From Gemmatimonadota bacterium (GTDB lineage: Bacteria > Gemmatimonadota > Gemmatimonadetes > Gemmatimonadales > GWC2-71-9), in assembly GCA_036679605.1 (NCBI GenBank), contig JAZDCZ010000254.1, positions 32,001-96,000 on the forward strand: a stretch of DNA of 64,000 bases. The letters are read 5' to 3'. The first letter of the stretch is position 1, and the number at the start of each line of letters is the position of its first letter. Under the pieces are notes generated by a model that worked only from the letters and a program-made list of their open reading frames with translations, made no database searches and had not been told where the DNA came from. Shown here one piece after another: positions 26,414 through 44,572 of the stretch. The position numbers were made by a program, and so were the translations under genes.

Positions 26414-26429
26414 GGTGGCAGACAACACC

Positions 26430-26510
26430 GAGTTCGGGCGAGGCATGCGGCGTGAGTAGGGGCGAGGCAGGCGGCGTGAGTAGGGGCAAGGCGTGCCTCG
26501 CCCTCTACTC
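26430..26510. repeat. REP-like element: two 24-nt half units followed by a GTAG-type palindrome
   Basis: gagttcgggcgaggcatgcggcgt / gagtaggggcgaggcaggcggcgt / gagtaggggcaaggcgtgcctcgccctctactc, between convergent genes. Confidence 0.7.
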
Positions 26511-29378
26511 TTGCCGCAACGCCTCGATCGGATCGACACGCATCGCACGACGCGCGGGGAGATATGTGGCAGCCAGCGCAAGCGCGAAGATCAACACAGC
26601 CACCCCTGCCAACGTCGTGGGATCCAGGGGAACGACCCCAAACAGCAGACTCGATACGTAGCGCGTCACCCAGAACACCAGTACGAAACCCAGTGCGACC
26701 CCCAACCCGACCATGCGAGCCCCCTGGCCGAGCACGAGCCCCGCTATGTTCGAGTGGGCTGCACCGAGCGCCATCCTAATGCCGAGTTCGCGCGTGCGCT
26801 GAGTCACTGCATAGGTGAGCACCCCGAAGAGGCCGAGGCACGTGATGCCTGTGGCCAGCACGGCAAATAGAACTACCAACTGCGCCCTGAACCTGCTGTC
26901 CGCACTTTGCTCTGCGACCATCTGGTCGAGGGTGCGGATCTGTCGGACCTCGATCTCGTTGGGGTCGACGGCCACGATTTCGCGGCGCAACACCTCTGCC
27001 AATGCTGCCGGCTCCACAGAGGCGCGAACAAAGAGGTTCTCGCCACGCGCGTTGTGTAAATAGAAGGTGGGCCGTGGTTCGACTCCGAGCGTGTTCTGTA
27101 CGTCCTGCGCCACCCCAATTACTTCGGCTCCTACTCCGAACCACGGGAGGGGTGATTGCGGATCGAATTGCTCGCCCCTTCGGATCCTACTCAGCGTTTG
27201 CGCGATGACGTCCGGGGCCTCATCCCTCGGAAAGAAGACTTTGCCCAACGGGCTCTCGCCGGGCCAAACCTTCCGGGCCATTGCCGCGTTGATCACAACT
27301 CGCTGGTTTTGCAATAGCCAGGAACGGTCGTCCCCGCCATTGTCCCAGGCGGCGACTTGTTGGTTCCAACGCGCCTCGTTGGCGGCTATGTCGGCGTTGT
27401 TCCAGGCACGACCCTCGAGCATCGGGAAGCCCATGGTGCGAAAGTATCCCGCTGATAGCATTTGCATATGGGCCACCGGGCGTTGGCCCTCCTCGGGTCG
27501 TGGCCGGTCGGGCAGCGTGATAACTGTGACCGACGGCTCCACACCGGATAATGGCACAGACCCCCATCGCCCTGAAGCGTACGCCGCGACCCCGGGAATC
27601 GACTCAACGCGGTCCCGGAGCAGGGCATGCAGTTGGCGCCACCCTGAAGGCCCATTGTATTTCGAAAATTGCGGAGGGGGTAAACTGATCTTCACGTGGA
27701 CAACGCGTTCGCCAACCCCCGTGTCGACTCCTACGAGGTTCCAAAAGCTCTGCAGCATGAGACCGGCACCAGCGAGCAGCACCAGCGACAGTGCTACCTC
27801 GGCGGTGACCAGCACGCGAAGTGAACGGGTCCGGGCAAGCGTGGCGCCTCGACCTCCGGCCTTGAGTACCTCGGACGAGTCGCGCCGGGCACCACGCGCA
27901 GCGGGCCACAGGCCCACGAGCAGCACGCTGGCCAGCGATACACCTACCGCGAACGCCAGCACTCCCGCATCAAGACCGGCCTGGTCCAACCGGTGCACGC
28001 CGTCCGGCGAGAACATCTTGAGGGCGGCGATACCCCAATACGCCAACAACACACCCAACACACACGCCGTGCCCCCGAGTACTGTTGCTTCGGTGAGCAA
28101 CTGACTGAAAATGCGTCGTGCTCCGGCGCCGAGAGCCGCACGGACAGCCAGTTCCCGCTCCCGAGCCACCCCCCAACCCAATAGCAGGCTCGAAACGCTG
28201 GCGCAGGCAACGAGCAACACCAGCGCCGTGGCCGCCCAGAGAAAGCCCAATGCCACTCCATATTCCTGGCGCAGCAGATCGCCAACCGAAAAAACGGTCA
28301 CTTCGAGACCCGCTTCCGTTTCGGGAGCGATCTCGGCCATCCCGTCCGCAATGGATTGCAGATTTGTCCGTGCCTGCTCGACTGTCACCCCCTCCCGCAG
28401 CTGAGCGAGGGTACGGATTCCCCCAAAACGACGCTCGGTGCGGTATCCTCCCTGATCAAGCCCGACTGGCAAAATCAATTCCAGTGCCTGCGACACTGCG
28501 TAGTTGGCGCCTTTGCGTAGAGGCGGCATCCTGAAATCCGGCGGCAGGACACCAACGACCTCATATTCCGACGGGAGGTAGCCCTCCCCCTGGACATAAC
28601 GCCACAGGGGAATCGTCTGTCCGATCACATCCTCACCACCCAATTCGCGCAGCCAGTACCCGTGGCTAAGCAACACAACGTTGCCGGCGCCATCCAGGTC
28701 CTCGTCGGCCCGAAACGTGCGACCGCGAAACGGCGCAACTCCCATCATCGTGAACAGATCGGCGGAAACGTAAGCAGCCGGTATCACCGAAGCGCGGTCC
28801 TCATCTCCGGTGGCTACTCCGCCGGTGTAATAGATGGCGGCAAAGTGCGAGAAGACATCGTTCCGGCTGCGGTACTCGCGGAAATTGGGAATCGACATCT
28901 GCAGCTCGTCCTCCGGCGGACCGGCGCGACGATTGGAGTGGTCCCACAGTTGCACCACCCTATCGGGCGACTTGAAGGGAAGCGGTGCCAAGACAACCGT
29001 CTTGATCACGCCGAACATGGCGGCATTGGCCCCGATGCCCAGCGCCAGCGTGAGCACCGCCGCGACGGTGAATCCCGGTCTCCTGCGCAGGGCTCGGACG
29101 GCGGAGCGGAGATCGTGAGCTAGGCCAACCAAGAAGCTCGCCCGAGCCTGCTTGCGCACGTGACCGTGCAGAATCTTTTCCCCTTGCTCGCGATAGTGTC
29201 GAGCGTCGCCGAAACGTCGCTCTGCGTCACGCCGAGCTTCCGCCGGCTCCATTCCCTCGGCCTCACTGTCGAGGGTTCGCTGTTGCAAGTGGAAGTGAAA
29301 CTCTTCATCGATCTCATTGAGTGTGCGACGGCGGGATGGCAGCCATTGGCGGATGTCAAAGCAGCGTTTGAGATTCAT
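26505..29378 (-). CDS. ADOP-family duplicated ABC permease (2x MacB_PCD+FtsX), copy 1
   Basis: TLALGIGANAAMF, RERELAVRAALGA, RTRELGIRMALGA, PARRAMRVDP; prefix EIDEEFHFHL...ERRFGD; no cognate ATPase nearby. Confidence 0.92.
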   Translation of the reverse strand: MNLKRCFDIRQWLPSRRRTLNEIDEEFHFHLQQRTLDSEAEGMEPAEARRDAERRFGDARHYREQGEKILHGHVRKQARASFLVGLAHDLRSAVRALRRRPGFTVAAVLTLALGIGANAAMFGVIKTVVLAPLPFKSPDRVVQLWDHSNRRAGPPEDELQMSIPNFREYRSRNDVFSHFAAIYYTGGVATGDEDRASVIPAAYVSADLFTMMGVAPFRGRTFRADEDLDGAGNVVLLSHGYWLRELGGEDVIGQTIPLWRYVQGEGYLPSEYEVVGVLPPDFRMPPLRKGANYAVSQALELILPVGLDQGGYRTERRFGGIRTLAQLREGVTVEQARTNLQSIADGMAEIAPETEAGLEVTVFSVGDLLRQEYGVALGFLWAATALVLLVACASVSSLLLGWGVARERELAVRAALGAGARRIFSQLLTEATVLGGTACVLGVLLAYWGIAALKMFSPDGVHRLDQAGLDAGVLAFAVGVSLASVLLVGLWPAARGARRDSSEVLKAGGRGATLARTRSLRVLVTAEVALSLVLLAGAGLMLQSFWNLVGVDTGVGERVVHVKISLPPPQFSKYNGPSGWRQLHALLRDRVESIPGVAAYASGRWGSVPLSGVEPSVTVITLPDRPRPEEGQRPVAHMQMLSAGYFRTMGFPMLEGRAWNNADIAANEARWNQQVAAWDNGGDDRSWLLQNQRVVINAAMARKVWPGESPLGKVFFPRDEAPDVIAQTLSRIRRGEQFDPQSPLPWFGVGAEVIGVAQDVQNTLGVEPRPTFYLHNARGENLFVRASVEPAALAEVLRREIVAVDPNEIEVRQIRTLDQMVAEQSADSRFRAQLVVLFAVLATGITCLGLFGVLTYAVTQRTRELGIRMALGAAHSNIAGLVLGQGARMVGLGVALGFVLVFWVTRYVSSLLFGVVPLDPTTLAGVAVLIFALALAATYLPARRAMRVDPIEALRQE

Positions 29379-29722
29379 CGGACCGCCTCCGGCTTGGGAG
29401 TCATGACCTTGCCCACCGCCTCAGAAAACCGCTCCCAAAGCACTGCTTTCTCCTTCAACTGGCCACGACCGGCCCGAGTCAGGCTATAGATCTTGGCTCG
29501 GCGCTTGCTTTCGGTGAGAAACCACTCCGCTTCGATCAATCCTCGCTTTTGCATGCGATAGAGCGCGGGATACATCGATCCCTCGTCGACCTGGAGGGTA
29601 TCGTCTGTCAGGGCCTGAAGACGGCGGGTGATCCCGTACCCGTGTTGGGGCTCCTGCTCCAGAATCTGGAGCACCAGCATGTCGAGGGTGCCCTTGAGGA
29701 CTTCGATCGCATCAGATTGCAT
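29375..29722 (-). CDS. PadR-family regulator 1 (acidobacterial type)
   Basis: LKGTLDMLVLQIL..HGYGI..VDEGSMYPALYRM..RRAKIYSLT..G; stop overlaps the ADOP start. Confidence 0.92.
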   Translation of the reverse strand: MQSDAIEVLKGTLDMLVLQILEQEPQHGYGITRRLQALTDDTLQVDEGSMYPALYRMQKRGLIEAEWFLTESKRRAKIYSLTRAGRGQLKEKAVLWERFSEAVGKVMTPKPEAVR

Positions 29723-29735
29723 CGTGGGTCCCTTA

Positions 29736-29752
29736 CCTTAGAAGTTCTAGGG
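29736..29752. promoter_or_regulatory. Putative PadR1 operator
   Basis: Imperfect palindrome CCTTAGAA-G-TTCTAGGG just upstream of padR1. Confidence 0.5.
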
Positions 29753-29803
29753 AATGATACGAGCCTTCGCGCCTCGACGCAAGTCTTCAGGCTGTGTCAT
29801 CCG

Positions 29804-29855
29804 TTGACGATACTGTCGATCTATGGTATGATATTTTCGCGGAAATAATATACCA
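29804..29855 (+). promoter_or_regulatory. sigma70 promoter with overlapping long inverted repeat (AbiE-type operator)
   Basis: TTGACG-N17-TATGAT with extended TGn; IR tggtatgatattttcg/cggaaataatatacca at 29824-29855. Confidence 0.7.
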
Positions 29856-29870
29856 AGAGGTCGACCTGAC

Positions 29871-30446
29871 ATGCCTAGAGCAGCGAATTTCACTCTCCAT
29901 CCAGGGACTGTGTACCGGACGAAATCCTTCCAGAAGTATGGGAAGAACCCCACGCGACTGGCCGCCCGTCTCGTAAGAGAGGGTCACTTGGAGAAACTCC
30001 GGAGTGGTCTCTATTACGCCCCACGCGTCAGTCGGTTTGGTGTTGTACCGCCCGCAGACGGGGAGTTGCTCCGAGTGTTTTTCGATGGCGCTCCCTACTT
30101 GGTAACAGGGCCGTCGGTTTGGAACAGTCTGGCCCTTGGATCGACCACGGTGGCGAATGTCCAATTGGTCTACAACATGCAACGCACAGGTGTGGTCGAA
30201 CTGGCCGGACGACGCTTCGAGCTGCGTCGTGTTCGATTTCCTCGACGAGGTGTAAGACCGGAGTACTACGTCGTTGACCTCTTTGAGAACGTCGACGTCG
30301 CGGGAGTCGAGTACGACGTCTTGACCGCGAACCTGCGCAAGGCTATGGCGAATCGACGTTTTGATGCCTCGAGGCTTCGAGATGTCGCTCTCGAATACGG
30401 CAGCAAACGCACTCAGCGAGCCGTGTCCCAGGCCATCGGCGCGTAG
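29871..30446 (+). CDS. AbiEi-like (type IV TA) antitoxin, module A
   Basis: N-terminal wHTH RLVREGHLEKLRSGLYY, WNSLALGST; directly upstream of an AbiEii-like gene. Confidence 0.72.
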   Translation: MPRAANFTLHPGTVYRTKSFQKYGKNPTRLAARLVREGHLEKLRSGLYYAPRVSRFGVVPPADGELLRVFFDGAPYLVTGPSVWNSLALGSTTVANVQLVYNMQRTGVVELAGRRFELRRVRFPRRGVRPEYYVVDLFENVDVAGVEYDVLTANLRKAMANRRFDASRLRDVALEYGSKRTQRAVSQAIGA

Positions 30447-30451
30447 ACCAA

Positions 30452-30943
30452 GTGGGCTTCATTCACGAGGACGGCGGGTTTGCTGACCTCATACAAATCG
30501 TCTCCTCCGATCTTCGCATCAGCACGTCACTTGTGGAGAAAGACTACTGGGTAACCCACGTCCTTTGGAGCCTTGCCGAACAAGATTTCGAGGTTTGGTT
30601 CAAGGGGGGGACATCCCTGTCAAAAGGGTTCGGCCTCATTCAACGCTTCTCTGAGGATCTGGACCTCAAGCTCGAACACCCCGACCTGTCTCCAATCGGC
30701 AACTGGAAATCAGAGGGCAAGACGGCAACTGCTAATCGGAAGGTCTTCTTCGACGGGCTCATAAACCTGCTCTGTATCCCCGGGATGGATACGACGGAAC
30801 TGACCGAGCAACGCGCGAATGCCGATAGAGGCATCGTAGTTGCTGCTCATCACCCGATTGTCTTTGACGATATGCCCGTAGGCATGAGGCCATTCGTTCG
30901 GCTCCATGATGCCATGGAGTGGGTCCGCTCAAGTGCGGGATGA
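30452..30943 (+). pseudogene. AbiEii/AbiGii nucleotidyltransferase toxin, module A, probably truncated or internally deleted
   Basis: LVEKDYWV..FKGGTSLSKGFGLIQRFSEDLDL intact, but only 163 aa and lacking the C-terminal helical domain. Confidence 0.72.
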
Positions 30944-30994
30944 TCCACCGCGACCTGCCGGACCTGGCAGCGGAGTGACGCTACATTGTCAGTC

Positions 30995-31207
30995 ATGAGA
31001 CCCGACACCCGACCACCGGAACGGCTCGACCCGAGACTCGTCGCCATCTATGGCAGGATGTCGCCTGACGAGCGACTGGCGGCCGCCTTCGCCGCGACGC
31101 AGCTCGTCCGCTCTCGTCTGGAGGCGCATTTGGGGGCGCGCGAAGATTGGACCCCAGAGCAGGTGCAGGCCGAGATAGCCCGGAGGTTCCTCCATGGAAG
31201 CGGATGA
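30995..31207 (+). CDS. Small putative antitoxin, module B
   Basis: 70 aa, YGRMSPDERL...WTPEQVQAEIARRF; overlaps the NTase start. Confidence 0.65.
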   Translation: MRPDTRPPERLDPRLVAIYGRMSPDERLAAAFAATQLVRSRLEAHLGAREDWTPEQVQAEIARRFLHGSG

Positions 31208-31763
31208 ACTCCTACGCTATCTGGTCACTGTACTCGAAGAGATCGGTGTTCCGTACGCGATTGGTGGATCAATCGCGAGCATCGCATACGGTGAACCCCG
31301 AGCCACCCTGGACATCGATGTCGTGGCGTCACTCACCGCTGAGAGCTTGGCAGCCTTTTGTGAACGATTCCCTCCTGCAGACTTCTATCTGAGTCTCGAG
31401 GCAGCCGATGCAGCGATCCGAGAGGGTGGCCAGTTCAACATCATCCATCCTTCGTCCGGCATGAAGATCGATGTCTTCTCGGACAAGAAGGATGCGGTCG
31501 CCAGGAGTCAAATAGAGCGCGGTCGGCGTTTGCCGGCGCTGCCGGGCTTCACAGCCGTCTTCTCTTCGCCTGAGGAGTTGATTGTGAAGAAGCTTCAGTA
31601 CTACCAACTCGGTGGCTCGGACAAACATTTGAGAGACGTGCGAGCGATGCTCGAGATCTCGGGAGAGGAAATCGATCTCCGACGGATAGGGGAATGGGTT
31701 GCTCGGTTGGATCTCGCTGAGGTCTGGACGTTGGTGTCGGATCACCCGGTGGCCGAAGGATAG
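31194..31763 (+). CDS. Pol-beta superfamily nucleotidyltransferase (DUF6036-like), putative toxin, module B
   Basis: YAIGGSIASIAYGEPRATLDIDVV, KIDVF, SPEELIVKKL..SDKHLRDV. Confidence 0.8.
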   Translation: MEADELLRYLVTVLEEIGVPYAIGGSIASIAYGEPRATLDIDVVASLTAESLAAFCERFPPADFYLSLEAADAAIREGGQFNIIHPSSGMKIDVFSDKKDAVARSQIERGRRLPALPGFTAVFSSPEELIVKKLQYYQLGGSDKHLRDVRAMLEISGEEIDLRRIGEWVARLDLAEVWTLVSDHPVAEG

Positions 31764-31768
31764 GAACC

Positions 31769-34609: not shown

Positions 34610-34971
34610 GACCGCCCCGCCACATCGACCAGACCGGCCTTTCGGAGATCGAACGCCACGCTGGCCACACGATTCGCTTCGGCCTTGAGCGCGTCCCGGC
34701 CAAGATCGGTGAGCCGAAAATAGCGACGACGCTTGTCATCTCGATCGACGCCCATTGGCGCGTCGGATTGCTCAATCAAACGCCGTTTCTCTAGTGCCGT
34801 GATGGATTCGTAAAGCGAAGCGGGGCCAATGGATACGTGGCCCCGGCCGAGTTCCTCGGCCATCCGCAGCAGGCGGTATCCGTGTTGGGGGCCCTCGTCG
34901 AGGGCCCACAGAATCAGGAGCACCCTGGGGGTCAGGGGCAGTAGGGACGAAACGTCAGGCTGGCGTGTCAT
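34606..34971 (-). CDS. PadR-family regulator 2 (different subfamily)
   Basis: LPLTPRVLLILWAL..HGYRL..GPASLYESI..RRRYFRLTDLGR; GGAGGAG RBS. Confidence 0.9.
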   Translation of the reverse strand: MTRQPDVSSLLPLTPRVLLILWALDEGPQHGYRLLRMAEELGRGHVSIGPASLYESITALEKRRLIEQSDAPMGVDRDDKRRRYFRLTDLGRDALKAEANRVASVAFDLRKAGLVDVAGRS

Positions 34972-34982
34972 TGAACCACTCC

Positions 34983-35025
34983 TCCGGTATCCGGAATAGT
35001 GTTGCCTCTGAACGGTCCGTGTCAA
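34983..35025 (-). promoter_or_regulatory. padR2 promoter and operator
   Basis: Minus-strand TTGACA (35025-35020)-N18-CACTAT; palindrome TCCGG-TAT-CCGGA at 34983-34995. Confidence 0.55.
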
Positions 35026-35084
35026 GATCTAGCTGCTGCCAGCAAGCCCTGTAGCATTACTCGAGATGCAGTGGACATGCTAGT

Positions 35085-35104
35085 TGATAGCTAATCAGCT
35101 ATCA
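35085..35104. promoter_or_regulatory. Operator palindrome of TA module C
   Basis: TGATAGCT-AATC-AGCTATCA ending 6 nt before ATG35111. Confidence 0.65.
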
Positions 35105-35110
35105 TACAAT

Positions 35111-35431
35111 ATGCCCAAAGACATAGCCGCTATCGTGCGTGATGCCCGATCCAGGACCCAGTTGAGTCAGCGCGAACTCGCACGCCGCGCCGGGACCGCG
35201 CAGTCCGTAATTGCACGCGTCGAACTCGGCCAGACGAGTCCGACCTGGGAGACACTTACTCGGATTCTCGCTGCGGCGGGATTCGATCTCGACGCCAAGC
35301 TAACCGTCAGCCCTATTGTCGGGTCGCACATGCTCGACGATGTAGCTCGGATCATGAGTCTCAAACCGGTGCAGAGGCTGGAAGAGATCGCAAATGCCTG
35401 CCGGTTTGCCGCCGCGGTGAGGCGTGTCTAG
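35111..35431 (+). CDS. XRE-family HTH putative antitoxin, module C
   Basis: LSQRELARRAGTAQSVIARVELGQTSPTWETL; C-terminal MSLKPVQRL. Confidence 0.85.
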   Translation: MPKDIAAIVRDARSRTQLSQRELARRAGTAQSVIARVELGQTSPTWETLTRILAAAGFDLDAKLTVSPIVGSHMLDDVARIMSLKPVQRLEEIANACRFAAAVRRV

Positions 35432-35930
35432 TCCAGCACCGCTCAATCCGGAGCTTCTGTTCACTACGCTCGCTCGTCACGAGGTTCAATACGTCCTCAT
35501 CGGCGCGGTTGCCGCGCGTTTGCAAGGATTTCCCCGAATGACGGCCGATGCCGACATCACCCCCTCCCGCGATCGGGAGAACCTCGAACGCGTGGCCGTT
35601 GCACTGAGGGAACTCGACGCGCGGATCTATACCGAGACCGTTCCAGAGGGGCTGGCGTTTGACTGCAGTGCCACCATGCTGGAACGCGGAGAACTGTGGA
35701 ACCTGGTAACCTCGGCCGGCCGGTTGGACGTGGCGTTCATGCCGTCGGGCACCGAGGGGTTCGAAGACTTGGTTGTTGGCGCCATCCGGTTCGAGGTGTA
35801 CGGCATCGAATTGCTGGCGGCGAGCCTAGAGGACATCGTGCGATCCAAGGAAGCTGCCGACCGGCCGCAAGACCGCCAAGATGTGGTAATCATCCGGGAG
35901 ATGCTGCGGAGGGAACAGGGCTTGACCTGA
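35424..35930 (+). CDS. Pol-beta superfamily nucleotidyltransferase, putative toxin, module C
   Basis: YVLIGAVAARLQG.PRMTADADI, GRLDV, ASLEDIVRSKEAADRPQD. Confidence 0.8.
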   Translation: MSSPAPLNPELLFTTLARHEVQYVLIGAVAARLQGFPRMTADADITPSRDRENLERVAVALRELDARIYTETVPEGLAFDCSATMLERGELWNLVTSAGRLDVAFMPSGTEGFEDLVVGAIRFEVYGIELLAASLEDIVRSKEAADRPQDRQDVVIIREMLRREQGLT

Positions 35931-36051
35931 GATGCAAATCGAGACCACGGCCAACCTCTCCAGAACGGGCTAAGAGCCTTTGGTGTTGCGAGGCCCGTGC
36001 TTCAAGGCGGGACTCACGACACGGCCCGTCGCCAAGGCGACCCGCTCCACC

Positions 36052-38916
36052 TTACTCCTGCCGCAACGCCTCGATGGGGTCGACACGCATCGCGCGCCGA
36101 GCTGGGAGATACGCGGCGAGCAGGGCAACCGCGAAGATCAACGCAGCCACCCCAGCCAAGGTCAGCGGATCCAGCGGCGCGACCCCAAACAACAGACTCG
36201 AGACGTAGCGCGTCACCCAAAACACCAGTACGAAGCCCAGCGCGACCCCCAACCCGACCATTCGAGCCCCTTGGCCGAGGACGAGTCCCGCGATTTGAGA
36301 GTTGCCGGCACCGAGCGCCATCCGAATGCCGAGTTCGCGCGTGCGCTGAGTCACCGCATAGGCGAGTACCCCGAAGAGCCCGAGGCACGTGATGCCCGTG
36401 GCCAGAACGGCGAAGAGAACGACCAGCATCGCCCTGAATCTGCTGTCCGCGCTTTGCTCTGTGACCATCTGGTCGATCGTACGGATCTGCGTTACCTCGA
36501 TCTCGTTCGGGTCGACGGCCACGATTTCGCGACGCAACACTTCCAGCATTGCCTCCGGCTCCACCGAAGTGCGAACGTAGAGGTTCTCGCCATAAGGGTT
36601 CTCGACATAATACGCGGGCAGGGGTTCGTCTCCGAGCGTCATCTGTACGTCCTGCGCCACCCCGATTACCTCGCGCCCTACCCTGAACCAATTGGGTTGT
36701 GACTGTTGATCGAGTTGCTCGCCCCGTCGGATCTTACCCAGCGTCTGGGCGATAACCTCCGGGTCCTGATCGCCCGGGAAGAAGATCTTGCCCAACGCGC
36801 TCTCGCCCGGCCAAAACTTCCGGGCCATTGCCGCATTGATCACGACCGGGCAGCAGTTAAATACCCAGGAAAGGTCAGGCGGGTCGGTCGGTGAAGGCCT
36901 TGGGGCCGCCAATGCCGCCCTCCGTGCGTCCACGTCCCAAGTGCGACCCTCGATAAGCTGGACGCCCATTGCGCGAAAATATCCCGGTGATACGAATCTC
37001 CAATGGGCCACCGGGCGTTGGCCCTCCTCGGGTCGAGGCCGGTCGGGCAACGTGACGACGCCCCCACTCGGCTCCACTCCGGATAATGGCGTAGACCCGG
37101 CTTGCCCTGTAGCGTATGCCGTCACACCGGGAATCGACTCAACTCGGTCCCGGAGCAGGGCAATCAGTTCGAGTATCCCTTCTCCACGGTATTTCGAAAA
37201 TTGGCCAGGGGTTCTGTTGATGGTGACGTGGACGACCCGCTCGCCAACCCCGGTTTCGACTCCTACGAGGTTCCAAAAGCTCTGTAGCATGAGACCAGCA
37301 CCAGCCAGCAAGACCAACGACAGGGCAACCTCGACGGTGACCAGTACGCGAAGTGAATGGGTGCGGGCAAGCGTGGCGCCTCGACCTCCGGCCTTGAGTA
37401 CCTCAGACGATTCGCGCCGGGCACCACGCGCGGCTGGCCACAGGCCCACCAGCAGCACGCTTGCCAGCGATATACCCACCGCAAACGCCAGCACTCCCAG
37501 ATCGAGACTGACCTGGTCTAACCTGTGCACGCCATCCGGTGTGAAAATCTTTAGTGCTGCGATACCCCAATACGCCAGCAACACGCCCAAGACACACGCC
37601 ATACCCGCGAGTACTGTGGCCTCGGTCAGCAACTGACTGAAGATGCGTCTTGCTCCAGCGCCAAGTGCCGCACGCACAGCTAGTTCCCGCTCCCGGGCCA
37701 CGCCCCAACCCAGCAGCAGGCTCGAAACGCTGGCACAGGCAACTAGCAACACCAGAGCGGTGGCCGCCCAGAGAAAGCCCAATGCCACCCCGTATTCCTG
37801 TCGCAACAGGTCTCCAACCGAAAAGACCGTCACCTCGATACCCGCATCGGTTTCGGGAGCGATCTCGGCGATCCCGTCCGCAATGGCTTGCAGATTTGTC
37901 CGTGCCTGCTCGACGGTCACCCCCTCCCGCAGTTGGGCGAGGGTGCGAATAGACCCCCAACCACGCCAGTTGTGCAGGAACTCCCCCATATCGAGCCCGA
38001 AGGGTAAAAACACCTGGGGTTCCGGCAACACCGCGTAGTCTGCCCCTATGCGCAGCGGCGGCATCCTGAATTCCGGTGCCAGCACACCGACGACCTCGTA
38101 TTCCGCCAGATGGTACCCGCCCCCCCTCTGGACAAAACGCCGCAGGGCAATTGTTTGTCCGATTACATCCTCACCACCCAATTCGCGCAGCCAGTACCCG
38201 TGGCTGAGCAAGACAACGTTGCCGGCGCCATCAAGGTCCTCGTCGGCCCGAAACGTGCGACCGCGAAACGGCGCAACTCCCATCATCGTGAACAGATCGG
38301 CGGAAACGTAAGCAGCCGGTATATAGGTAAAGCGGTCCTCCCTTCCGCTGAGCACGCCGCCGCCGGTGTACATGATGGCGGCAAAGTGCGAGAAGACTTC
38401 GTTCCGGCTGTCGTACTCGCGGAAATTGGGCTGCGGTATCAACAACTCTTCGTCCAGCGGACCGGGTCGAGCGTTAGAGTGGTCCCACAGTTGCACCACC
38501 CTATCGGGAGCCTTGAATGGCAGCGGACCCAGGACGACCGTCTTGATCACGCCGAACATGGCGGCATTGGCCCCGATGCCCAGGGCCAGCGTGAGCACCG
38601 CCGCGACGGTGAAGCTGGGTCTGCGACGCAGGGCTCTTACGGCGGAGTGGAGATCCTGAAGGGAGGAGTCCATGATGCTCCGCCGCGATCGCCGCCGGGA
38701 AACCGACGACTGGATAGCAACGCACTCGGTCCGGATCTCCTCGAGATCCCCGAATCGGTTGACTGCCTCGTCCTGGGCGTCCGTGGGGCTCAGCGGCCCA
38801 GCTTCGAGATCCCTGGCCTTCATGTGGAGGTGAAACTGGAGTTCGTCGTCGATGTCGTGCTTAACATCGACATGCTGCCGACGAAAGATGCGCTTGAAGC
38901 CGGGCATCAGAGACAC
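36052..38916 (-). CDS. ADOP-family duplicated ABC permease, copy 3
   Basis: Same framework; prefix DIDDELQFHL...AVNRFGD. Confidence 0.92.
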   Translation of the reverse strand: MSLMPGFKRIFRRQHVDVKHDIDDELQFHLHMKARDLEAGPLSPTDAQDEAVNRFGDLEEIRTECVAIQSSVSRRRSRRSIMDSSLQDLHSAVRALRRRPSFTVAAVLTLALGIGANAAMFGVIKTVVLGPLPFKAPDRVVQLWDHSNARPGPLDEELLIPQPNFREYDSRNEVFSHFAAIMYTGGGVLSGREDRFTYIPAAYVSADLFTMMGVAPFRGRTFRADEDLDGAGNVVLLSHGYWLRELGGEDVIGQTIALRRFVQRGGGYHLAEYEVVGVLAPEFRMPPLRIGADYAVLPEPQVFLPFGLDMGEFLHNWRGWGSIRTLAQLREGVTVEQARTNLQAIADGIAEIAPETDAGIEVTVFSVGDLLRQEYGVALGFLWAATALVLLVACASVSSLLLGWGVARERELAVRAALGAGARRIFSQLLTEATVLAGMACVLGVLLAYWGIAALKIFTPDGVHRLDQVSLDLGVLAFAVGISLASVLLVGLWPAARGARRESSEVLKAGGRGATLARTHSLRVLVTVEVALSLVLLAGAGLMLQSFWNLVGVETGVGERVVHVTINRTPGQFSKYRGEGILELIALLRDRVESIPGVTAYATGQAGSTPLSGVEPSGGVVTLPDRPRPEEGQRPVAHWRFVSPGYFRAMGVQLIEGRTWDVDARRAALAAPRPSPTDPPDLSWVFNCCPVVINAAMARKFWPGESALGKIFFPGDQDPEVIAQTLGKIRRGEQLDQQSQPNWFRVGREVIGVAQDVQMTLGDEPLPAYYVENPYGENLYVRTSVEPEAMLEVLRREIVAVDPNEIEVTQIRTIDQMVTEQSADSRFRAMLVVLFAVLATGITCLGLFGVLAYAVTQRTRELGIRMALGAGNSQIAGLVLGQGARMVGLGVALGFVLVFWVTRYVSSLLFGVAPLDPLTLAGVAALIFAVALLAAYLPARRAMRVDPIEALRQE

Positions 38917-38920
38917 GGGC

Positions 38921-39259
38921 CTATGCCTCCTTCAAATTGAGCACCGTCTCCACCGCCTTGGCAGACCTCCTCCACCGGGCCGTCTCGGTCTCGAGGCGTT
39001 TGCGACCGGCGGGCGTCAGATCGTAGAACTTGGCACGGCGGCCGGTATCATTTCGCCCCCACTCGGCCTTGAGATACCCCTCTTTCTCGAGACGGTGGAG
39101 CGCTGGGTACAGCACTCCCTCATCAACGCGGAGTACCTCCTCCGTGCGCTCCAGCACCCATTTACTGATCGCGTATCCGTGAAGCGGGCCCCACGTCAGC
39201 GACTTGAGGATGAGGACGTTAAGGGTGCCGGGAATGAGCTTGTCACGCAGTTCGGCCAT
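38921..39259 (-). CDS. PadR-family regulator 3 (acidobacterial type)
   Basis: LIPGTLNVLILKSL..HGYAI..VDEGVLYPALHRLE..RRAKFYDLT..G. Confidence 0.92.
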   Translation of the reverse strand: MAELRDKLIPGTLNVLILKSLTWGPLHGYAISKWVLERTEEVLRVDEGVLYPALHRLEKEGYLKAEWGRNDTGRRAKFYDLTPAGRKRLETETARWRRSAKAVETVLNLKEA

Positions 39260-39369
39260 GCTCCCATGATACCTATGTTACCAATGTAACGCAAGCGCAG
39301 TAGGTGGCTGCCCAACCCTTTTGGTGCTGAGCACCATGATCGGAGCGGCGGCGCCGAGAACGGCCGGAC

Positions 39370-39410
39370 TTGCTCAAAGCCAGCCGAGTCTATATTCTCA
39401 TATATGAGAA
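39370..39410 (+). promoter_or_regulatory. Promoter and operator of TA module D (probably leaderless)
   Basis: TTGCTC(39370)-N17-TATTCT(39393); perfect 16-bp palindrome TTCTCATATATGAGAA (39395-39410) contains ATG39404; no SD. Confidence 0.65.
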
Positions 39411-39904
39411 CTATATCTGGGAGCACCGGTCCCCTCGTGGGTCCCCGTCTGAGGGCCTTGCGCCGGCGTAATAGACTATCCCTCAAGGAGTTGGCGGAGA
39501 AGATCGGCAGCAGCGTCTCGGCGATCCATCGCTACGAGAGCGGCTGGGGGCGATTCGAGCTGCGCACCCTGCAGCGTCTAGCCGCCGCGCTCGATGCCCG
39601 GCTGGACATCCGGCTCGAGCCGCTTCATCCTGAAAGCTCCGATGGCCGTGCATCGCCGGCTCAACTCGTCCGGACCCTGCGGTCGCTCTTCTGGGACGTC
39701 GAGCTGAAGCCCGAACACCTGGACGATAATCCGCAATGGGTCCTGCGCCGGGTTCTGCGATTCGGCGATTGGCATGCCGTGCGACAGGCACGAATGCATT
39801 TCGGCGACGATGCGGTCCGTGACGCGGCAGCCCACCGTTCCATGGATGCCCGTACCCGCCGGCTGTGGCAGGTGATCCTGGGTCCGACCCGGGACCAGCC
39901 ATGA
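39404..39904 (+). CDS. XRE HTH fused to DUF6922-like domain, putative antitoxin, module D
   Basis: LSLKELAEKIGSSVSAIHRYESG; LFWDV...WVLRRVLRFGDW. Confidence 0.8.
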   Translation: MRTISGSTGPLVGPRLRALRRRNRLSLKELAEKIGSSVSAIHRYESGWGRFELRTLQRLAAALDARLDIRLEPLHPESSDGRASPAQLVRTLRSLFWDVELKPEHLDDNPQWVLRRVLRFGDWHAVRQARMHFGDDAVRDAAAHRSMDARTRRLWQVILGPTRDQP

Positions 39905-40521
39905 ATCCGCGCGTCCTGCCCCAGGAGGCCTGGAAGCTCGTGCGCCAGCTCGACGGGGCGGTACTGCTTGAGCCCTGGATCCTCGCGGAGGGAACCGGCT
40001 TGGCCTTGCAGCTCGGTCACCGAGTCTCCATCGATCTCGATTTCTTCATCGAAGACAGGTTCGACGTCGGCGCGTTGCGGAGATCACTCGCCGATCTCGG
40101 CGCACTGGAAATCCAATACCAAGACGAGAACACGCTGCATGTCCGACTGAACGAGATTCGCCTGAGCTATCTGTTTTCGGAAGCACCGTTTCTTTGTCCG
40201 CCCCTCGAATATCGCGGCCTGCGATTGGCGGATCCTCGGGACATCGCCGCGATGAAGATCATCGCCATCGCCGGGCGGGGAAGCCGCAAGGATTTCGTCG
40301 ACCTGTACGCCTATCTAGAGGCTGGCGGTGATTTCCCGGGATTGATGGAAATTGTTCGACGTCGCCATACGAACGTCTCGTTCAACGAGATCCATCTGCT
40401 CCGGAGCCTGGTCTACTTCGAGGATGCCGAGCAGGAGCCGATGCCGCGGATGCTCCACAAGGTCGACTGGCCGGAGATTCGGGCTCGACTCGAGGAAGAG
40501 GTTCGGCGTTGGGCGCCTTAG
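39901..40521 (+). CDS. AbiEii/AbiGii-family nucleotidyltransferase, module D (GG motif changed to EG)
   Basis: LAEGTGLALQLGHRVSIDLDFF, DIAAMKIIAIAGRGSRKDFVDLY, SLVYFEDAE; ATGA overlap. Confidence 0.85.
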   Translation: MNPRVLPQEAWKLVRQLDGAVLLEPWILAEGTGLALQLGHRVSIDLDFFIEDRFDVGALRRSLADLGALEIQYQDENTLHVRLNEIRLSYLFSEAPFLCPPLEYRGLRLADPRDIAAMKIIAIAGRGSRKDFVDLYAYLEAGGDFPGLMEIVRRRHTNVSFNEIHLLRSLVYFEDAEQEPMPRMLHKVDWPEIRARLEEEVRRWAP

Positions 40522-43424
40522 TGCGAGTTCGGGCGAGGCATGCCTTGCCCTGTACTACCTCCGCTCACAGGCCGTGTCTTCTCTTCGACCGGCTCTAGCC
40601 CTAGAGTTTTTCCTTTGTCCACTGCCGGCACACCTTCCGCGAGCCACACAGGAGCCGGCGCGTCCTTCAGGTAGTGATCGAAGAACTGCTGCATCCGCAT
40701 CGCCCAGTCCTTCTTGTTCTGATATTTCCTGAGCCCGTGCGGCTCTCCATTGTAATTCAACAGCCAAACCGGCTTGCCGAGCCTCCGCAGAGCAACGAAG
40801 AACTCGATGCCCTGGTACCACGGCACCGCGGTATCCTTGTCGTTATGCATCATGAGCACCGGAGTTTCGATCTTGTCCGCCCAGAAGAGCGGTGAGTTTT
40901 CGATGTAACGCGGCCTCGCCTCCCAGAGAGAGCCGCCTAGACGACTCTGGGTGCGCTCATACTGGAACATGCGGCTCATTCCACTGCCCCATCTGATTCC
41001 GCCATAGGCGCTGGTCATGTTGGCGACTGGCGCTCCAGCCTCGGCGGCCGTGAATATGTTGGTGCGGGTAACGAGGTAAGCGATCTGATACCCTCCCCAA
41101 CTATGCCCCTGTACACCTATGCGCTCGGGATCGACAAACCCCTGGTCGACAACACTCAAGACACCGGGAACCACACAGTTGAGCGCGCTCTCGCCGGGAT
41201 AGCCGTCCCGATAGTGGATATCCGGAATAAACACGACGTAGCCGCGACTCACATAGAAGCTGATGTTGATGCTCGAGCTGCCCGCTATGGGACCGCGGTA
41301 CCTGTGCAGCGTATTCGACATCTTCTCATAGAAATAAACCATCATCGGGTATTTCTTGGATGGATCGAAATCGTCGGGCTTGAAGAGAATGCCATCGAGC
41401 GGCAAACCATCGGTGGAGTTCCAGTGCACCAACTCGGCCGCGCCCCAGAGGTACTCCGACTGTTGCGGATTGGCATCGCTGATCTGATGCATATCGGCGA
41501 ACGACTGGTCCGTGACCCAAAGGTTGGGAAACTCCTCAAAGCTCTGCCTGGTCAACATCAGGGCATCTGAATCGTCGGCTCTGCGTGGGAAGCCGAAGGA
41601 CCGATCCATCATGACCAACCGCTTCGGAGGTCGGTTACCTCGCACCCTGTCTCTATAGAATCCGGCATCTTTGGAGCCGAGATGCAACGCGCGCAACAAC
41701 ATCGGATCTCGTTCGGAGATCGATTCCTCGTCAGGATCCAGCCGCACGTATCGGAACTGCACGTTCTGATCACGTCCGACCCCTTCGGTCACGTTCCGCG
41801 GCGCCGCACGACCCCTCGGATCAACGGCCCAAATGTCGTGCTTGTCGTAGACGAGGAACTGCTTGTCATCGTCCGTCCAACCCGCATTCCCGTAGGAGTT
41901 CGGGATCATCGGCCGGTCTGCAAGCGCGTCGTCAACCCGATAGGGGATCTGACCCGTGAGGTTCACCGGTTCGCCCCCGGCTACCGCGCGAGCGAACCAG
42001 GCCAACTCATGACCGTCCCACCACGTGATGAAATCTCCGTCAGGAGAGAGGCTGGCTCTGCCTTGCAGCTTCTCTGCGACCAGATCGTTCTCACCGGTTT
42101 CGACATTCACTACATAGACTTCGTTGTATCGCGGCGAATCCCACGAGATTTGCTGTCGGTAGCGAAAGTTGGTTACGGCGAGCCCGACGTCCGCATCGCC
42201 CTCACTTGCAATCGTAACGGTCGGCATGTGCACATGAGCCAACTGTACGATCCGCATGTCGCCGAGGTGGACGACCGCCCGATAGCTTCGCTTTAGTTCA
42301 TCATCACGCTGAAGCAGCTGCATGGGCTGAAGTAAAGGGTCCTGCCAGTTCCAGACGTCGACTTCGACCTTCTCGTACTCCGGCGTTTCTTCATCGGGTT
42401 TTGGATCTGGCCGTGGAGCCGTCCCAAAAAACAGTCGTCTACCGTTGTCGGAGAACGACGGCGCTCCGTTCTCACTCACCCACCAGTCATCCTCGATTCC
42501 GGGGCTGCTCTCGGTTGCGGCTGCGCTCGCCGAGTCGCTGTCGTCGCGCCAGCGATACAGGGTAAACGACGGCTGATCGGCGCTGTAGTCATCCCGGTTC
42601 GACAAAAAGGCCGCCTGCTTACCTTCGGTATCTAACGTGGGGGATTTGTAGACGCCCTCGCCTGAGAGTAGGGTCGATATCGAACCCTCAGAGACTTTCA
42701 CCACGTATACACCGTCCGCAGTGCCGTCTTTGCTCGACGCAGCATAGACCAAACTCTTGCCGTTCTCGGAGAACTCATACTCAGTGGCGCTCTCGAATTT
42801 CTGTTCGGCGCCCGAAGCCAGGTTCCGCAATACCAGGACAGTGCCTTCCTTCTTTTCGGATTTCTTCTTCTTGGCCTTTTCCTCCTCAGTACCCTCTTCA
42901 GCGGCTTCTTCCTCTTTCTTTTCCTCGGAGTTCTTGACGCTGTCTTTCTTCGCCTCGACCTTCTCGAGAAGGTAGGCAACCCACCCGCCGGCTTCTTCCG
43001 GCAGCTTGAACGACTTGACACGCTCGATGCGCGTCACCTCGCCCGTGGCAAGATCCAGCACGCCGAGTGAGTCCTTGGGCTGCTGATCGGGCTTCTTCTT
43101 TTCCTTCTTGGCCTCGCGCACCAGCGCCAACTCAGGCTTGATGGAAAACACCACGAACCTGCTGTCGTCGGTAAAGCGTGCCGCACGGCCCCTTGGGACC
43201 ACATACGATGCGTCAGTGTTCGCACCGGTGACGTGTAGCTGGGCGTCTCCTTCCTGTGGAACCAGCGAGTAGAGAACCCACGCTCCATTGCCTGCGATCC
43301 GCTGTTCCTGGATCCGGTTCCAGTCGTCGTAAACGCTATGATCGAGGGGCCGTTTGGCCTGCGCCCAAGCCAGGCTGGGAAGCGTAATAACGGCTGTCGC
43401 TACGAAGATGATTGTACGGTGCAT
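40518..43424 (-). CDS. S9 prolyl oligopeptidase / DPP-IV-like secreted peptidase
   Basis: GHSWGG nucleophile, HNDKDTAV, EPHG triad; propeller repeats; signal peptide. Confidence 0.92.
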   Translation of the reverse strand: MHRTIIFVATAVITLPSLAWAQAKRPLDHSVYDDWNRIQEQRIAGNGAWVLYSLVPQEGDAQLHVTGANTDASYVVPRGRAARFTDDSRFVVFSIKPELALVREAKKEKKKPDQQPKDSLGVLDLATGEVTRIERVKSFKLPEEAGGWVAYLLEKVEAKKDSVKNSEEKKEEEAAEEGTEEEKAKKKKSEKKEGTVLVLRNLASGAEQKFESATEYEFSENGKSLVYAASSKDGTADGVYVVKVSEGSISTLLSGEGVYKSPTLDTEGKQAAFLSNRDDYSADQPSFTLYRWRDDSDSASAAATESSPGIEDDWWVSENGAPSFSDNGRRLFFGTAPRPDPKPDEETPEYEKVEVDVWNWQDPLLQPMQLLQRDDELKRSYRAVVHLGDMRIVQLAHVHMPTVTIASEGDADVGLAVTNFRYRQQISWDSPRYNEVYVVNVETGENDLVAEKLQGRASLSPDGDFITWWDGHELAWFARAVAGGEPVNLTGQIPYRVDDALADRPMIPNSYGNAGWTDDDKQFLVYDKHDIWAVDPRGRAAPRNVTEGVGRDQNVQFRYVRLDPDEESISERDPMLLRALHLGSKDAGFYRDRVRGNRPPKRLVMMDRSFGFPRRADDSDALMLTRQSFEEFPNLWVTDQSFADMHQISDANPQQSEYLWGAAELVHWNSTDGLPLDGILFKPDDFDPSKKYPMMVYFYEKMSNTLHRYRGPIAGSSSINISFYVSRGYVVFIPDIHYRDGYPGESALNCVVPGVLSVVDQGFVDPERIGVQGHSWGGYQIAYLVTRTNIFTAAEAGAPVANMTSAYGGIRWGSGMSRMFQYERTQSRLGGSLWEARPRYIENSPLFWADKIETPVLMMHNDKDTAVPWYQGIEFFVALRRLGKPVWLLNYNGEPHGLRKYQNKKDWAMRMQQFFDHYLKDAPAPVWLAEGVPAVDKGKTLGLEPVEEKTRPVSGGSTGQGMPRPNSH
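40524..40555. repeat. REP-like palindrome; first 20 bp identical to 26429-26448
   Basis: cgagttcgggcgaggcatgccttgccctgtac; hairpin gggcgaggca/tgccttgccc. Confidence 0.7.
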
Positions 43425-44484: not shown

Positions 44485-44496
44485 GAGAGTTGTGAG

Positions 44497-44570: not shown

Positions 44571-44572
44571 AT

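What the first reader, a model, noticed from the sequence alone, without database searches (positions are those of the whole stretch)
26429..40550. Tandem array of ADOP permease-PadR units interleaved with four different nucleotidyltransferase toxin-antitoxin pairs (candidate toxin-locked receptor array)
Seen: the unit [<-ADOP <-PadR | antitoxin->NTase->] occurs three times (26505-31763, 31769-35930, 36052-40521). Every PadR is head-to-head with a TA-like pair. The four pairs are different from each other, yet all encode a Pol-beta-superfamily NTase (two AbiEii-type, two DUF6036-like). Known: ADOP-PadR pairs are common in Acidobacteria-like genomes, AbiEii-type NTases are type IV TA toxins, and TA cassettes limit deletions in Vibrio superintegrons. 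Inference: the near-identical ADOP copies would loop out by homologous recombination, and a TA pair in each interval would make such deletions costly while allowing gene conversion. An alternative is that ADOP sensing is coupled to toxin expression through the shared divergent promoters (defence or dormancy). I know of no description of this architecture.
Basis: partly seen in the sequence, partly recalled or inferred. Interest (0 to 1): 0.85.

Follow-up and report, generated by a model that had tools for sequence, protein, structure and literature searches.

The report
Toxin pairs between shuffled permease genes
Three related regulator-plus-membrane-protein gene pairs really do alternate with four toxin-antitoxin pairs here, but close relatives reorder the pieces and two of the four toxins look dead, so this is most likely a fast-changing genomic slot where mobile gene pairs pile up and recombine, with any protection against deletion a side effect.

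Summary
The layout is real: three PadR-ADOP units, each back-to-back with an NTase toxin-antitoxin pair; contigs of a public run bridge the junctions. But the ADOPs are only 72-81% identical. Toxin 1 is cut at residue ~151 of 315, and toxin 4 has Glu where 119 of 120 homologs have the motif-I Gly. Related strains reorder the pairs: DUF2911-TA3-TA1 without an ADOP, PadR1-TA2 without TA1. No NTase pair flanks ~265 foreign or 37 other own-genome ADOP intervals, and four TA pairs also cluster elsewhere in this genome without an ADOP. The ADOPs are mosaics whose promoter-PadR-N-terminal head swaps onto different bodies; a model supports PadR binding that head. Best reading: a strain-variable hot-spot where roaming TA pairs and recombining PadR-ADOP cassettes accumulate. 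The toxin lock is not excluded: each inter-ADOP interval keeps one intact-looking toxin, and post-recombinational killing has precedent. The scan noted tandem PadR-ADOP arrays before, on other DNA, but none with TA pairs. New variant of known kinds; interest 0.42.

The parts
25496..26413 (+). DUF2911 protein, left neighbour of the array; last gene of the + strand block of a ~25-kb island (15340-40555) that the same-genus genome G001 lacks
   Evidence: PF11138; G001 synteny; in run X2 it is followed by TA3 instead of ADOP1
26429..26505 (.). GTAG-type REP-like hairpin cluster at the ADOP1 3' end; its first 20 bp (26429-26448) recur exactly at 40524-40543
   Evidence: 2 copies of the 20-mer in the genome at up to 2 mismatches; the core hairpin occurs in 18 of 301 family genomes searched, own included
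26505..29378 (-). ADOP1 (double MacB/FtsX orphan permease); head type shared with L097, L102, P0004 and P0020; body closest to ADOP3
   Evidence: TIGR03434 726 bits, NF038403 prefix
29375..29722 (-). PadR1; modelled to bind the ADOP1 N-terminal prefix
   Evidence: TIGR03433 133 bits; complex score 0.77, best control 0.00
29739..29782 (-). PadR1 promoter (-35 at 29777-29782, -10 at 29754-29759) and palindrome (29739-29749); the X3 strain joint falls at 29782
   Evidence: read by eye; like elements upstream of L097, L102 and L099 PadRs; joint
29804..29850 (+). TA1 promoter and AT-rich inverted repeat (likely AbiEi operator, inferred); the X2 joint into TA1 is at 29800
   Evidence: 10 of 12 match, one of 4 hits; shuffles give 3.4
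29871..30446 (+). A1, AbiEi-family antitoxin, intact
   Evidence: PADLOC PDLC02234 E 4e-49
30452..30943 (+). T1, AbiEii toxin truncated at about residue 151; a homolog in the same 90% cluster has 315 aa, so the C-terminal half is missing
   Evidence: the X1 contig agrees with the window here
30986..31207 (+). A2, small MenA1 (Rv0078B)-like antitoxin; start uncertain
   Evidence: PF18993 E 0.045; tblastn finds it beside T2 homologs in 5 of 21 loci, one of them from unpublished G499
31194..31763 (+). T2, MenT1-like NTase toxin with intact conserved residues
   Evidence: profile against 8AN4 E 2.8e-10; Foldseek top hits 8an5/8an4, TM about 0.7; no departure at any column conserved in 85% or more of 120 homologs
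31769..34609 (-). ADOP2; L098-type head on an ADOP3-type linker; its body is 93-100% identical over most of its length to P0003, which carries an ADOP3-type head
34606..34971 (-). PadR2, a different PadR type (78% to the L098 PadR, 23-26% to PadR1 and PadR3); own promoter and palindrome at about 34983-35025
35111..35431 (+). A3, Xre/HTH antitoxin-like protein with an upstream 20-bp palindrome
   Evidence: PF13560, PF01381
35424..35930 (+). T3, DUF6036 NTase; G27, D42, D44, K142 and D150 kept; toxicity of this family not tested
   Evidence: PF19502 over cut-off; profile against 8AN4 E 2e-4
36052..38916 (-). ADOP3; head type shared with L018, L100 and P0003
38921..39259 (-). PadR3 (85% to the PadR of an Acidobacteriota MAG, L018); own promoter and palindrome at 39266-39294
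   Evidence: TIGR03433 130 bits
39404..39904 (+). A4, HTH-DUF6922 antitoxin with a 16-bp palindrome over its start
39901..40521 (+). T4, short AbiEii-family NTase with Glu30 at the first Gly of motif I; probably inactive; lies outside the ADOP repeats
   Evidence: PF08843; G in 119 of 120 homologs, 1 gap; the AbiEii G49A mutant is non-toxic (PMC3985639)
40524..40550 (.). Right REP-like hairpin and direct-repeat copy, inside the 3' end of the S9 peptidase ORF
40518..43427 (-). S9 peptidase, right anchor; in G001 only a four-helix-bundle (23S_rRNA_IVP) gene separates it from the homolog of window 14369-15340

Best explanation
The array is the variable end of a ~25-kb strain-specific island in a probable Gemmatimonadota genome, where two kinds of self-contained, self-regulated gene pairs accumulate. 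(1) PadR-ADOP units of one horizontally spread ADOP clade. PadR probably represses its own promoter (inferred from palindromes). The cytoplasmic N-terminal prefix of the ADOP probably binds the DNA-recognition face of its cognate PadR and so acts as a signal-controlled anti-repressor (model-supported, not measured). Copies recombine in their conserved membrane segments and exchange promoter-PadR-prefix heads and periplasmic bodies (shown by mosaics). (2) Roaming NTase TA pairs that settle in the only neutral slot, between a PadR promoter edge and the next gene's 3' end. They stack on one another, change order between strains and decay by toxin loss (order changes and decay shown; insertion mechanism unknown). 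Interleaving follows from where the free slot is and from TA pairs riding with a head when ADOPs recombine. Intact toxins T2 and T3 may incidentally make loop-out of their interval costly, but the evidence does not show that this is why they are there.
For: Strain contigs at 91-95% identity: DUF2911-(REP)-TA3-TA1 on one 2731-nt contig with no ADOP (X2), and PadR1 promoter-TA2-REP-ADOP tail without TA1 (X3); the joints fall at the -35 edges, 29782 and 29800. The whole island is missing in same-genus G001. NTase pairs beside generic ADOPs: 0 of ~265 intervals in 134 loci and 0 of 37 own-genome intervals. ADOP within 1.5 kb of TA homologs: 0 of 8 TA4 loci and 1 of 21 TA2 loci (1 of 20 without unpublished G499). 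Four TA pairs lie in 6.3 kb on C161 without an adjacent ADOP. T1 is truncated and T4 has G30E. PadR identity follows prefix identity (rho 0.81) more than core identity (0.38) over 12 units; the 66 pairs are not independent. P0003 is an ADOP3 head on an ADOP2 body. On a body tree, starred branches force at least 4 and at least 5 changes for two head types. PadR1-prefix model: score 0.77, best of 3 controls 0.00; the mark was reached by 116 of 157 solved complexes and 2 of 215 mismatched pairs (counts hold only roughly here); runs agree in at least 68% of contacts; partner pLDDT at least 71.
Against: Each inter-ADOP interval still holds exactly one intact-looking toxin, and the dead toxins are the redundant one and the outer one (2 of 6 random placements would give this). 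These ADOPs are more alike than any control tandem pair, so the controls do not cover this identity range. Clade relatives have TA genes next to them somewhat more often than generic ADOPs: 2 of 15 sides against 3 of 206 free control sides (Fisher p 0.04; loci not independent; TA load differs between hosts) and against 1 of 56 own-genome sides (p 0.11). The ADOP-TA2-PadR1 interleaving persists in X3, and PadR3-TA4 apparently in X4. The strain evidence comes from metagenome contigs of one study (X2, X3) that may mix several organisms.
Confidence: 0.55

Rival explanations
1. Toxin-locked array. Selection keeps an active TA pair in each interval between recombining ADOP copies because loop-out loses the antitoxin gene and kills the cell (post-recombinational killing). 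Exchange of heads and bodies continues while copy number is held.
For: One intact-looking toxin per interval (T2; T3). Exact tracts of 47-89 nt and proven mosaicism. Highest tandem identity seen. Interleaving kept in X3. Three proteins (P0003, P0020, P0258) list the same 10895-nt contig length, suggesting a sister array with TA2 between two ADOPs (inferred from equal lengths). Precedent in PMC5629016 (passages) and PMC6354349 (abstract).
Against: No enrichment beside generic tandem ADOPs. At 72-81% identity loop-out should already be rare (general knowledge). TA pairs stack without ADOPs at this locus in X2 and elsewhere in the genome. TA4 is outside the repeats. The T1 truncation looks like a deletion that already ran through a TA pair. 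No toxicity was measured.
Confidence: 0.25
2. REP-bounded cassette system. A Y1 (IS200/RAYT-like) transposase or recombination at the REP-like hairpins inserts and reorders the modules, making an integron-like array without an integrase.
For: A 20-bp direct repeat with only two genomic copies brackets the array. The same hairpin follows DUF2911 (X2, 28-nt side), T2 (X2, X3) and T1 (X3, 35-nt side) in related strains. The genome has 5 Y1_Tnp matches.
Against: The hairpin is a family-wide intergenic repeat found mostly beside ordinary genes (TA-like genes seen by eye beside 1 of 17 foreign loci). It is absent from the internal junctions of the window. No Y1 gene lies on this contig among the 5 matches. 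The short sides may come from repeats.
Confidence: 0.09
3. Coupled defence or dormancy circuit. ADOP sensing releases PadR and so changes expression of the divergent TA operon through a shared promoter region.
For: All three PadRs are back-to-back with a TA pair; the -35 boxes of PadR1 and TA1 are only 21 bp apart. AbiE is a phage-defence system (PMC3985639, passages).
Against: Each unit has its own promoter and palindrome, and the PadR palindromes lie on the PadR side. The partner changes between strains (PadR1 with TA1 or TA2; TA3 without PadR). None of the 7 clade upstream sides with 700 nt or more has a TA hit. Two toxins look dead.
Confidence: 0.07
4. Assembly chimera of separate loci or strains joined through ADOP homology.
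For: The bin has 6.3% contamination. No listed X1 contig spans the whole array, and contigs break inside ADOPs.
Against: Every ADOP-PadR-TA junction up to A4 is bridged with 0 differences at flat depth. The flanks on both sides are syntenic with one G001 contig. The clade has only three copies in the genome.
Confidence: 0.04

Closest known systems
TIGR03433/TIGR03434 PadR-ADOP pairs; HAAS-PadR-like wHTH dyad (10.1101/2020.09.24.301986, passages)
   Same: A standalone PadR precedes a double MacB/FtsX permease with an N-terminal helical prefix and no ATPase. The paper lists FtsX/MacB fusions of HAAS and proposes signalling to PadR.
   Different: Here one ADOP clade carries at least seven head types that swap between bodies, three of them in one array interleaved with TA pairs. 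Binding of the prefix to PadR gets model support; the passages read only propose it.
AbiE type IV TA (AbiEi/AbiEii; PMC3985639, passages)
   Same: TA1 and TA4 match the AbiEii family; A1 is AbiEi; the antitoxin precedes the toxin, with a palindromic promoter.
   Different: T1 lacks its C-terminal half; T4 has Glu at the motif-I Gly whose Ala mutant is non-toxic in AbiEii; A4 is HTH-DUF6922, not AbiEi.
MenAT1 of M. tuberculosis (PMC10435456, passages; PDB 8AN4/8AN5)
   Same: TA2: a short antitoxin upstream of a ~190-aa NTase whose profile and fold match MenT1 best.
   Different: Only 18-20% structural-alignment identity; the antitoxin match is weak (E 0.045); activity and binding untested.
TA systems that limit local deletions: post-recombinational killing on Shigella pINV (PMC5629016, passages), P. 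syringae plasmids (PMC6354349, abstract), Vibrio superintegron TA cassettes (PMC12548467, passages)
   Same: TA pairs lie between homologous repeats that could loop out.
   Different: The repeats here are diverged paralogous genes (72-81%), not IS or MITE copies or attC sites; there is no attC in the array; protection is unshown.
Chromosomal TA or defence hot-spots (general knowledge; examples in this genome)
   Same: Several unrelated TA pairs are stacked in one strain-variable slot, with toxin decay.
   Different: The slot is shared with a recombining regulator-permease family.

Membership tests
ADOP-PadR (TIGR03434/TIGR03433) | Permease scores above the TIGR03434 cut-off | tested here: met
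   726, 737 and 715 bits against 622.3
ADOP-PadR (TIGR03434/TIGR03433) | Adjacent upstream PadR | tested here: met
   PF03551 in all three; TIGR03433 over cut-off for PadR1 and PadR3, not PadR2 (52 against 101.8)
HAAS-PadR dyad | N-terminal helical domain that partners the PadR | tested here: inconclusive
   NF038403 prefix in ADOP1 and ADOP3; the prefix co-varies with PadR; model 0.77 against control 0.00; no HAAS-named Pfam hit; binding not measured
AbiE type IV TA (TA1) | AbiEi antitoxin upstream of an AbiEii toxin | tested here: met
AbiE type IV TA (TA1) | Full-length toxin including the C-terminal motifs III and IV | tested here: not met
   Homology ends at residue ~151 of a 315-aa homolog
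AbiEii-family toxin (T4) | Intact hG[G/S]...DhD catalytic motif | tested here: not met
   Glu30 against Gly in 119 of 120 homologs; the base was not confirmed on independent reads
MenAT1-like TA (TA2) | MenT1 fold with intact conserved residues | tested here: met
MenAT1-like TA (TA2) | Short MenA1-type antitoxin upstream | tested here: inconclusive
   PF18993 E 0.045, below cut-off; small ORF upstream in homologous loci
Any TA system (TA1-TA4) | Toxicity and rescue by the partner | not testable with these tools
   needs expression tests
Integron / superintegron cassette array | attC sites between cassettes | tested here: not met
   My pattern-plus-fold scan found attC-like sites beside both integrases of the genome (L269, L270) but only one hit in 25-41 kb, inside the T4 coding sequence
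Integron / superintegron cassette array | Linked integron integrase | tested here: not met
   The two TIGR02249 matches over cut-off are on contigs C73 and C407
REP/RAYT system | GTAG-flanked hairpin repeats | tested here: met
   the REP label and GTAG convention are recalled
REP/RAYT system | Cognate RAYT flanked by these repeats | tested here: inconclusive
   5 Y1_Tnp matches, none on this contig; their flanks were not analysed for the hairpin
Post-recombinational killing (toxin lock) | Active TA pair between recombining direct repeats | tested here: inconclusive
   Geometry met for TA2 and TA3, not TA4; recombination shown; activity unknown
Post-recombinational killing (toxin lock) | TA enrichment between tandem ADOPs in general | tested here: not met
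   0 NTase pairs beside ~265 foreign and 37 own-genome ADOP intervals; the controls reach only 70% identity

The most novel reading that the evidence does not exclude
An integrase-free combinatorial sensor array. Homologous exchange among ADOP copies re-pairs PadR anti-repressor heads with different periplasmic bodies, rewiring which signal controls which regulator. One active NTase TA pair per interval stops the same recombination from collapsing the array, and spare or outer toxins decay as predicted.
Probability: 0.2. Interest if true: 0.72.

Novelty: new variant of a known kind. Interest (0 to 1): 0.42.

Why it matters
Every component and the protective principle are known, so the ordinary reading matters modestly: it is a clear snapshot of chromosomal TA turnover at a hot-spot. 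Two by-products are more useful. First, ADOP permeases, abundant in these genomes and scarcely described in the searched library (2 papers hold the family name), swap regulator heads as a unit. Second, a structure model places the ADOP prefix on PadR's DNA-recognition face, which makes the proposed HAAS-PadR signalling directly testable with three natural cognate pairs from one locus. If the toxin lock also held, it would show TA systems preserving a recombining paralog array in a chromosome without integron machinery.

Tried and rejected
Clade ADOPs in relatives: none at E<=1e-200 in 40 related genomes, so no complete sister array was available. DUF2911 search in 300 order genomes gave only 37-52% homologs; not informative on the site. 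Sequencing runs: no RNA holder listed; X4 and X5 held small shares. Rfam: 0 hits in the window. The sigma-70 and terminator scan gave counts at chance level (4 against 3.4; 13 against 11.3); the PadR promoters were read by eye. An integron reading was rejected. The ORF downstream of the L103 ADOP looked HipA-like by eye but had no Pfam or PADLOC hit and a poor alignment; not counted. A HicB-like ORF near the C113 ADOP had no Pfam hit; not counted. PadR detection failed and was redone. AU tests on the body tree did not finish; only starred-branch counts are used. Single-sequence PDB searches of T2 and T3 were weak or blank; profiles were needed. The ADOP1 prefix has no significant PDB sequence match (best E 0.34). 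T4's exact sequence is on record only from this assembly, so G30E is not independently confirmed. Literature searches without a paper on ADOP-TA arrays; some searches gave the papers cited. No supplements were read; the tables of the HAAS paper may list more contexts.

Full report
Observation. The ORF map and family scans confirm three units of ADOP and PadR on the minus strand, each back-to-back with an antitoxin-NTase pair on the plus strand; two pairs sit in the first interval. All three permeases pass the TIGR03434 cut-off. The pairs are AbiEi/AbiEii (TA1), a short Rv0078B-like protein with an NTase (TA2), HTH with DUF6036 (TA3) and HTH-DUF6922 with AbiEii (TA4). T2 is not DUF6036. Its 100-sequence profile matches MenT1 (8AN4, E 2.8e-10) and its model (pLDDT 92.7) hits 8an5/8an4 first (TM about 0.7). 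The ADOPs are not near-identical: 71.7, 73.4 and 80.7% DNA identity, with longest exact tracts of 47, 64 and 89 nt. A 20-bp direct repeat, part of a GTAG-type hairpin (label recalled), brackets the array at 26429-26448 and 40524-40543 and has only these two copies in the genome.

Is the assembly real? Contigs of run X1, which may be the source sample and so is not independent biology, bridge 26058-27497, 29013-32023, 33083-36306 and 38554-39610 with no differences. Depth is 14-22 up to TA4, where a more abundant relative adds depth. No listed contig spans the whole array. The flanks (5-15268 and 40555-46075) are contiguous in the same-genus genome G001, which lacks all of 15340-40555 and has a four-helix-bundle gene there. 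The array is thus the end of a ~25-kb island. Genes from named Gemmatimonadota loci match this genome at a median 55.5% (40 of 93 ORFs hit), Acidobacteriota ones at 43.2% (97 of 311), so the host is probably Gemmatimonadota.

State of the toxins. T1 matches a 315-aa member of its own 90% cluster only to about residue 151, so it lacks its C-terminal half. T4 has Glu30 where 119 of 120 homologs have Gly (one gap). This is the first Gly of motif I, and the G49A mutant of AbiEii is non-toxic (PMC3985639, passages). The base is on record only from this assembly. T2 departs from no column conserved in 85% or more of 120 homologs. T3 keeps G27, D42, D44, K142 and D150 among 65 homologs, with a few substitutions elsewhere. 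So two toxins look dead and two intact. The intact ones lie one per inter-ADOP interval; this fits a lock, but 2 of 6 random placements would give it. A homolog of TA1 on contig C113 also has a shortened toxin ORF (108 aa).

The locus in relatives. Runs X2 and X3 (one study; marine sediment by record; contigs 91-95% alike; possibly several organisms) rearrange the modules. One 2731-nt X2 contig reads DUF2911, a 28-nt match to the right hairpin, TA3, 53 other letters, then TA1, with no ADOP; X3 shows the TA3-TA1 joint weakly (30-nt side). An X3 contig joins the PadR1 promoter to TA2 without TA1. Both runs carry hairpin letters between the T2 stop and the ADOP stop, and X3 joins T1 at 30899 to the left hairpin (35-nt side). 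The firm joints fall at 29782, the outer edge of PadR1's -35 box, and at 29800, four bases before TA1's -35 box. Modules are therefore promoter-to-stop units. Each unit has its own palindrome (read by eye), so the divergent promoters are adjacent, not shared. The interleaving itself persists in X3 (ADOP tail-TA2-PadR1). Three database proteins (two clade ADOPs and a 93% T2 homolog) list the same 10895-nt contig length, which suggests a sister array.

Enrichment test. The three ADOPs belong to a small clade (21 listed proteins before a drop to 30-38% identity). I fetched 13 clade loci and 144 generic ADOP loci, dropped 10 near-duplicates and took ORFs of 55-440 aa within 1 kb of each ADOP or its PadR. 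All 210 control ORFs, 50 of 52 own-genome ORFs plus one extra, and 24 of 25 clade ORFs were scanned (the three left out were ADOP fragments). Beside ~265 generic ADOP intervals in 134 loci (56 loci with two or more) there was no AbiEii, DUF6036 or DUF2204 gene and three other TA-like hits. Beside 37 other own-genome intervals, including the 17 full copies on C13, there was none and one PIN. Clade relatives are single-copy in their loci; L099 has AbiEi/AbiEii and L105 a PIN pair downstream. That is 2 of 15 sides against 3 of 206 free control sides (p 0.04) and 1 of 56 own sides (p 0.11); the loci are not independent. The gene caller was trained on this genome and may miss foreign TA genes. Conversely, 0 of 8 TA4 loci and 1 of 21 TA2 loci (1 of 20 without unpublished G499, the only claim besides the A2 count that rests on it) have an ADOP within 1.5 kb, and several stack with other TA genes. 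This genome has 15 AbiEii matches and packs four TA pairs into 6.3 kb on C161 with no adjacent ADOP.

ADOP heads swap. Over 12 clade units PadR identity follows the identity of the ADOP N-terminal prefix (rho 0.81) more than that of the core (0.38) (pairs not independent). ADOP1 and ADOP3 have 83% identical core starts but 39% PadRs and 25% prefixes, and each head has a 70-85% match in other genomes. One is an Acidobacteriota MAG whose neighbouring genes match this genome at 46% or less, which points to horizontal transfer. P0003 has an ADOP3-type head on a body 93-100% identical to ADOP2 over most of its length. ADOP2 keeps an ADOP3-type linker (informative sites 48 against 20 in that block, reversed in most others). 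On a tree of 17 bodies, starred branches force at least 4 and at least 5 changes for two head types. A model of two PadR1 with ADOP1 residues 1-90 scored 0.77 against 0.00 for the best of 3 controls. The mark was reached by 116 of 157 solved complexes and 2 of 215 mismatched pairs; these counts hold only roughly for this job. The runs agree in at least 68% of contacts and the partner's pLDDT is at least 71. The interface uses PadR residues 27-33, 46-59 and 74-77, which by recall include the recognition helix and wing. No solved relative of the prefix was found by sequence. This supports but does not show the HAAS-PadR signalling proposed in 10.1101/2020.09.24.301986 (passages).

Mechanism. Shown: the island, module reordering between strains, head-body mosaics, truncation of T1, and the absence of a general ADOP-NTase link. 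Model-supported: the prefix binds PadR. Inferred: PadR autorepression and its relief by the permease; TA pairs settling in the neutral slot between a PadR promoter and the next 3' end and travelling with heads; inactivity of T4. Unknown: how TA pairs insert, whether T2 and T3 are toxic, and what the permeases sense or carry. I give 0.55 to accretion plus recombination with incidental protection, 0.25 to a selected toxin lock, 0.09 to REP-driven cassettes, 0.07 to coupled regulation and 0.04 to a chimera.

Comparison and novelty. The array is not an integron: there is no attC in it, and the two integrases lie on other contigs. TA systems that block recombinational loss of neighbouring DNA are published for Shigella pINV (PMC5629016, passages) and P. 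syringae plasmids (PMC6354349, abstract and outline), and proposed for the Vibrio superintegron (PMC12548467, passages). MenAT1 is described in PMC10435456 (passages). Searches found no paper on TA pairs among ADOPs; the library lacks most subscription papers and I read no supplements. Earlier notes of this scan describe tandem PadR-ADOP arrays without TA pairs and nothing like this stretch. The combination appears undescribed, but its parts and the proposed principle are known: a new variant of a known kind, interest 0.42.

Noticed in passing
window 15374-15545 and 17185-17355; also G000 C212, C91, C419: A ~170-nt leader, 86% identical, precedes two island genes, with 78-81% partial copies on other contigs. 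There is no Rfam hit in the window. It could be a duplicated promoter or an undescribed structured RNA.
   Followed up: partly
G000:C214:67594 and 87077: The same REP-like hairpin sits within what look like Ser/Thr kinase coding sequences, at a spot where other kinase genes have only half of it.
   Followed up: no
G000:C13 (L004-L010): 17 full ADOPs plus a split one in 138 kb, most with their own PadR, about 30% identical to the array's ADOPs, with no TA hit beside them.
   Followed up: partly
L100:3989-4110, L101:2027-2160, L106:3489-3600: Three clade ADOPs share a ~90-nt hairpin-rich 3' element that by eye resembles a decayed attC site.
   Followed up: no
L194:14590-15140 (G001): At the site of the island, G001 has a 23S_rRNA_IVP four-helix-bundle gene flanked by short tandem repeats.
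   Followed up: yes
L269, L270 (G000 C73, C407): Two integron integrases with attC-like sites; one array carries a HicAB pair.
   Followed up: partly
L011:3067-3977 (G000 C113): An A1 homolog (42%) is followed by a 108-aa remnant where the toxin should be, a second case of apparent toxin decay.
   Followed up: no
window 39270-41260: Run X1 holds a roughly five times more abundant relative of TA4 with different flanks, in line with TA4 roaming in that community.
   Followed up: no
window 40518-40555: The S9 peptidase ORF reads through the right hairpin and overlaps the T4 stop; its G001 ortholog stops just where the hairpin region begins.
   Followed up: partly
P0379, P0382, P0389, P0390: Several T3 homologs are 270-290 aa with an extra N-terminal ~110 aa, possibly antitoxin-toxin fusions.
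   Followed up: no
L017, L018: Both clade ADOPs of one Acidobacteriota MAG are split into several ORFs, one with an IS3-like insertion at its 3' end.
   Followed up: no
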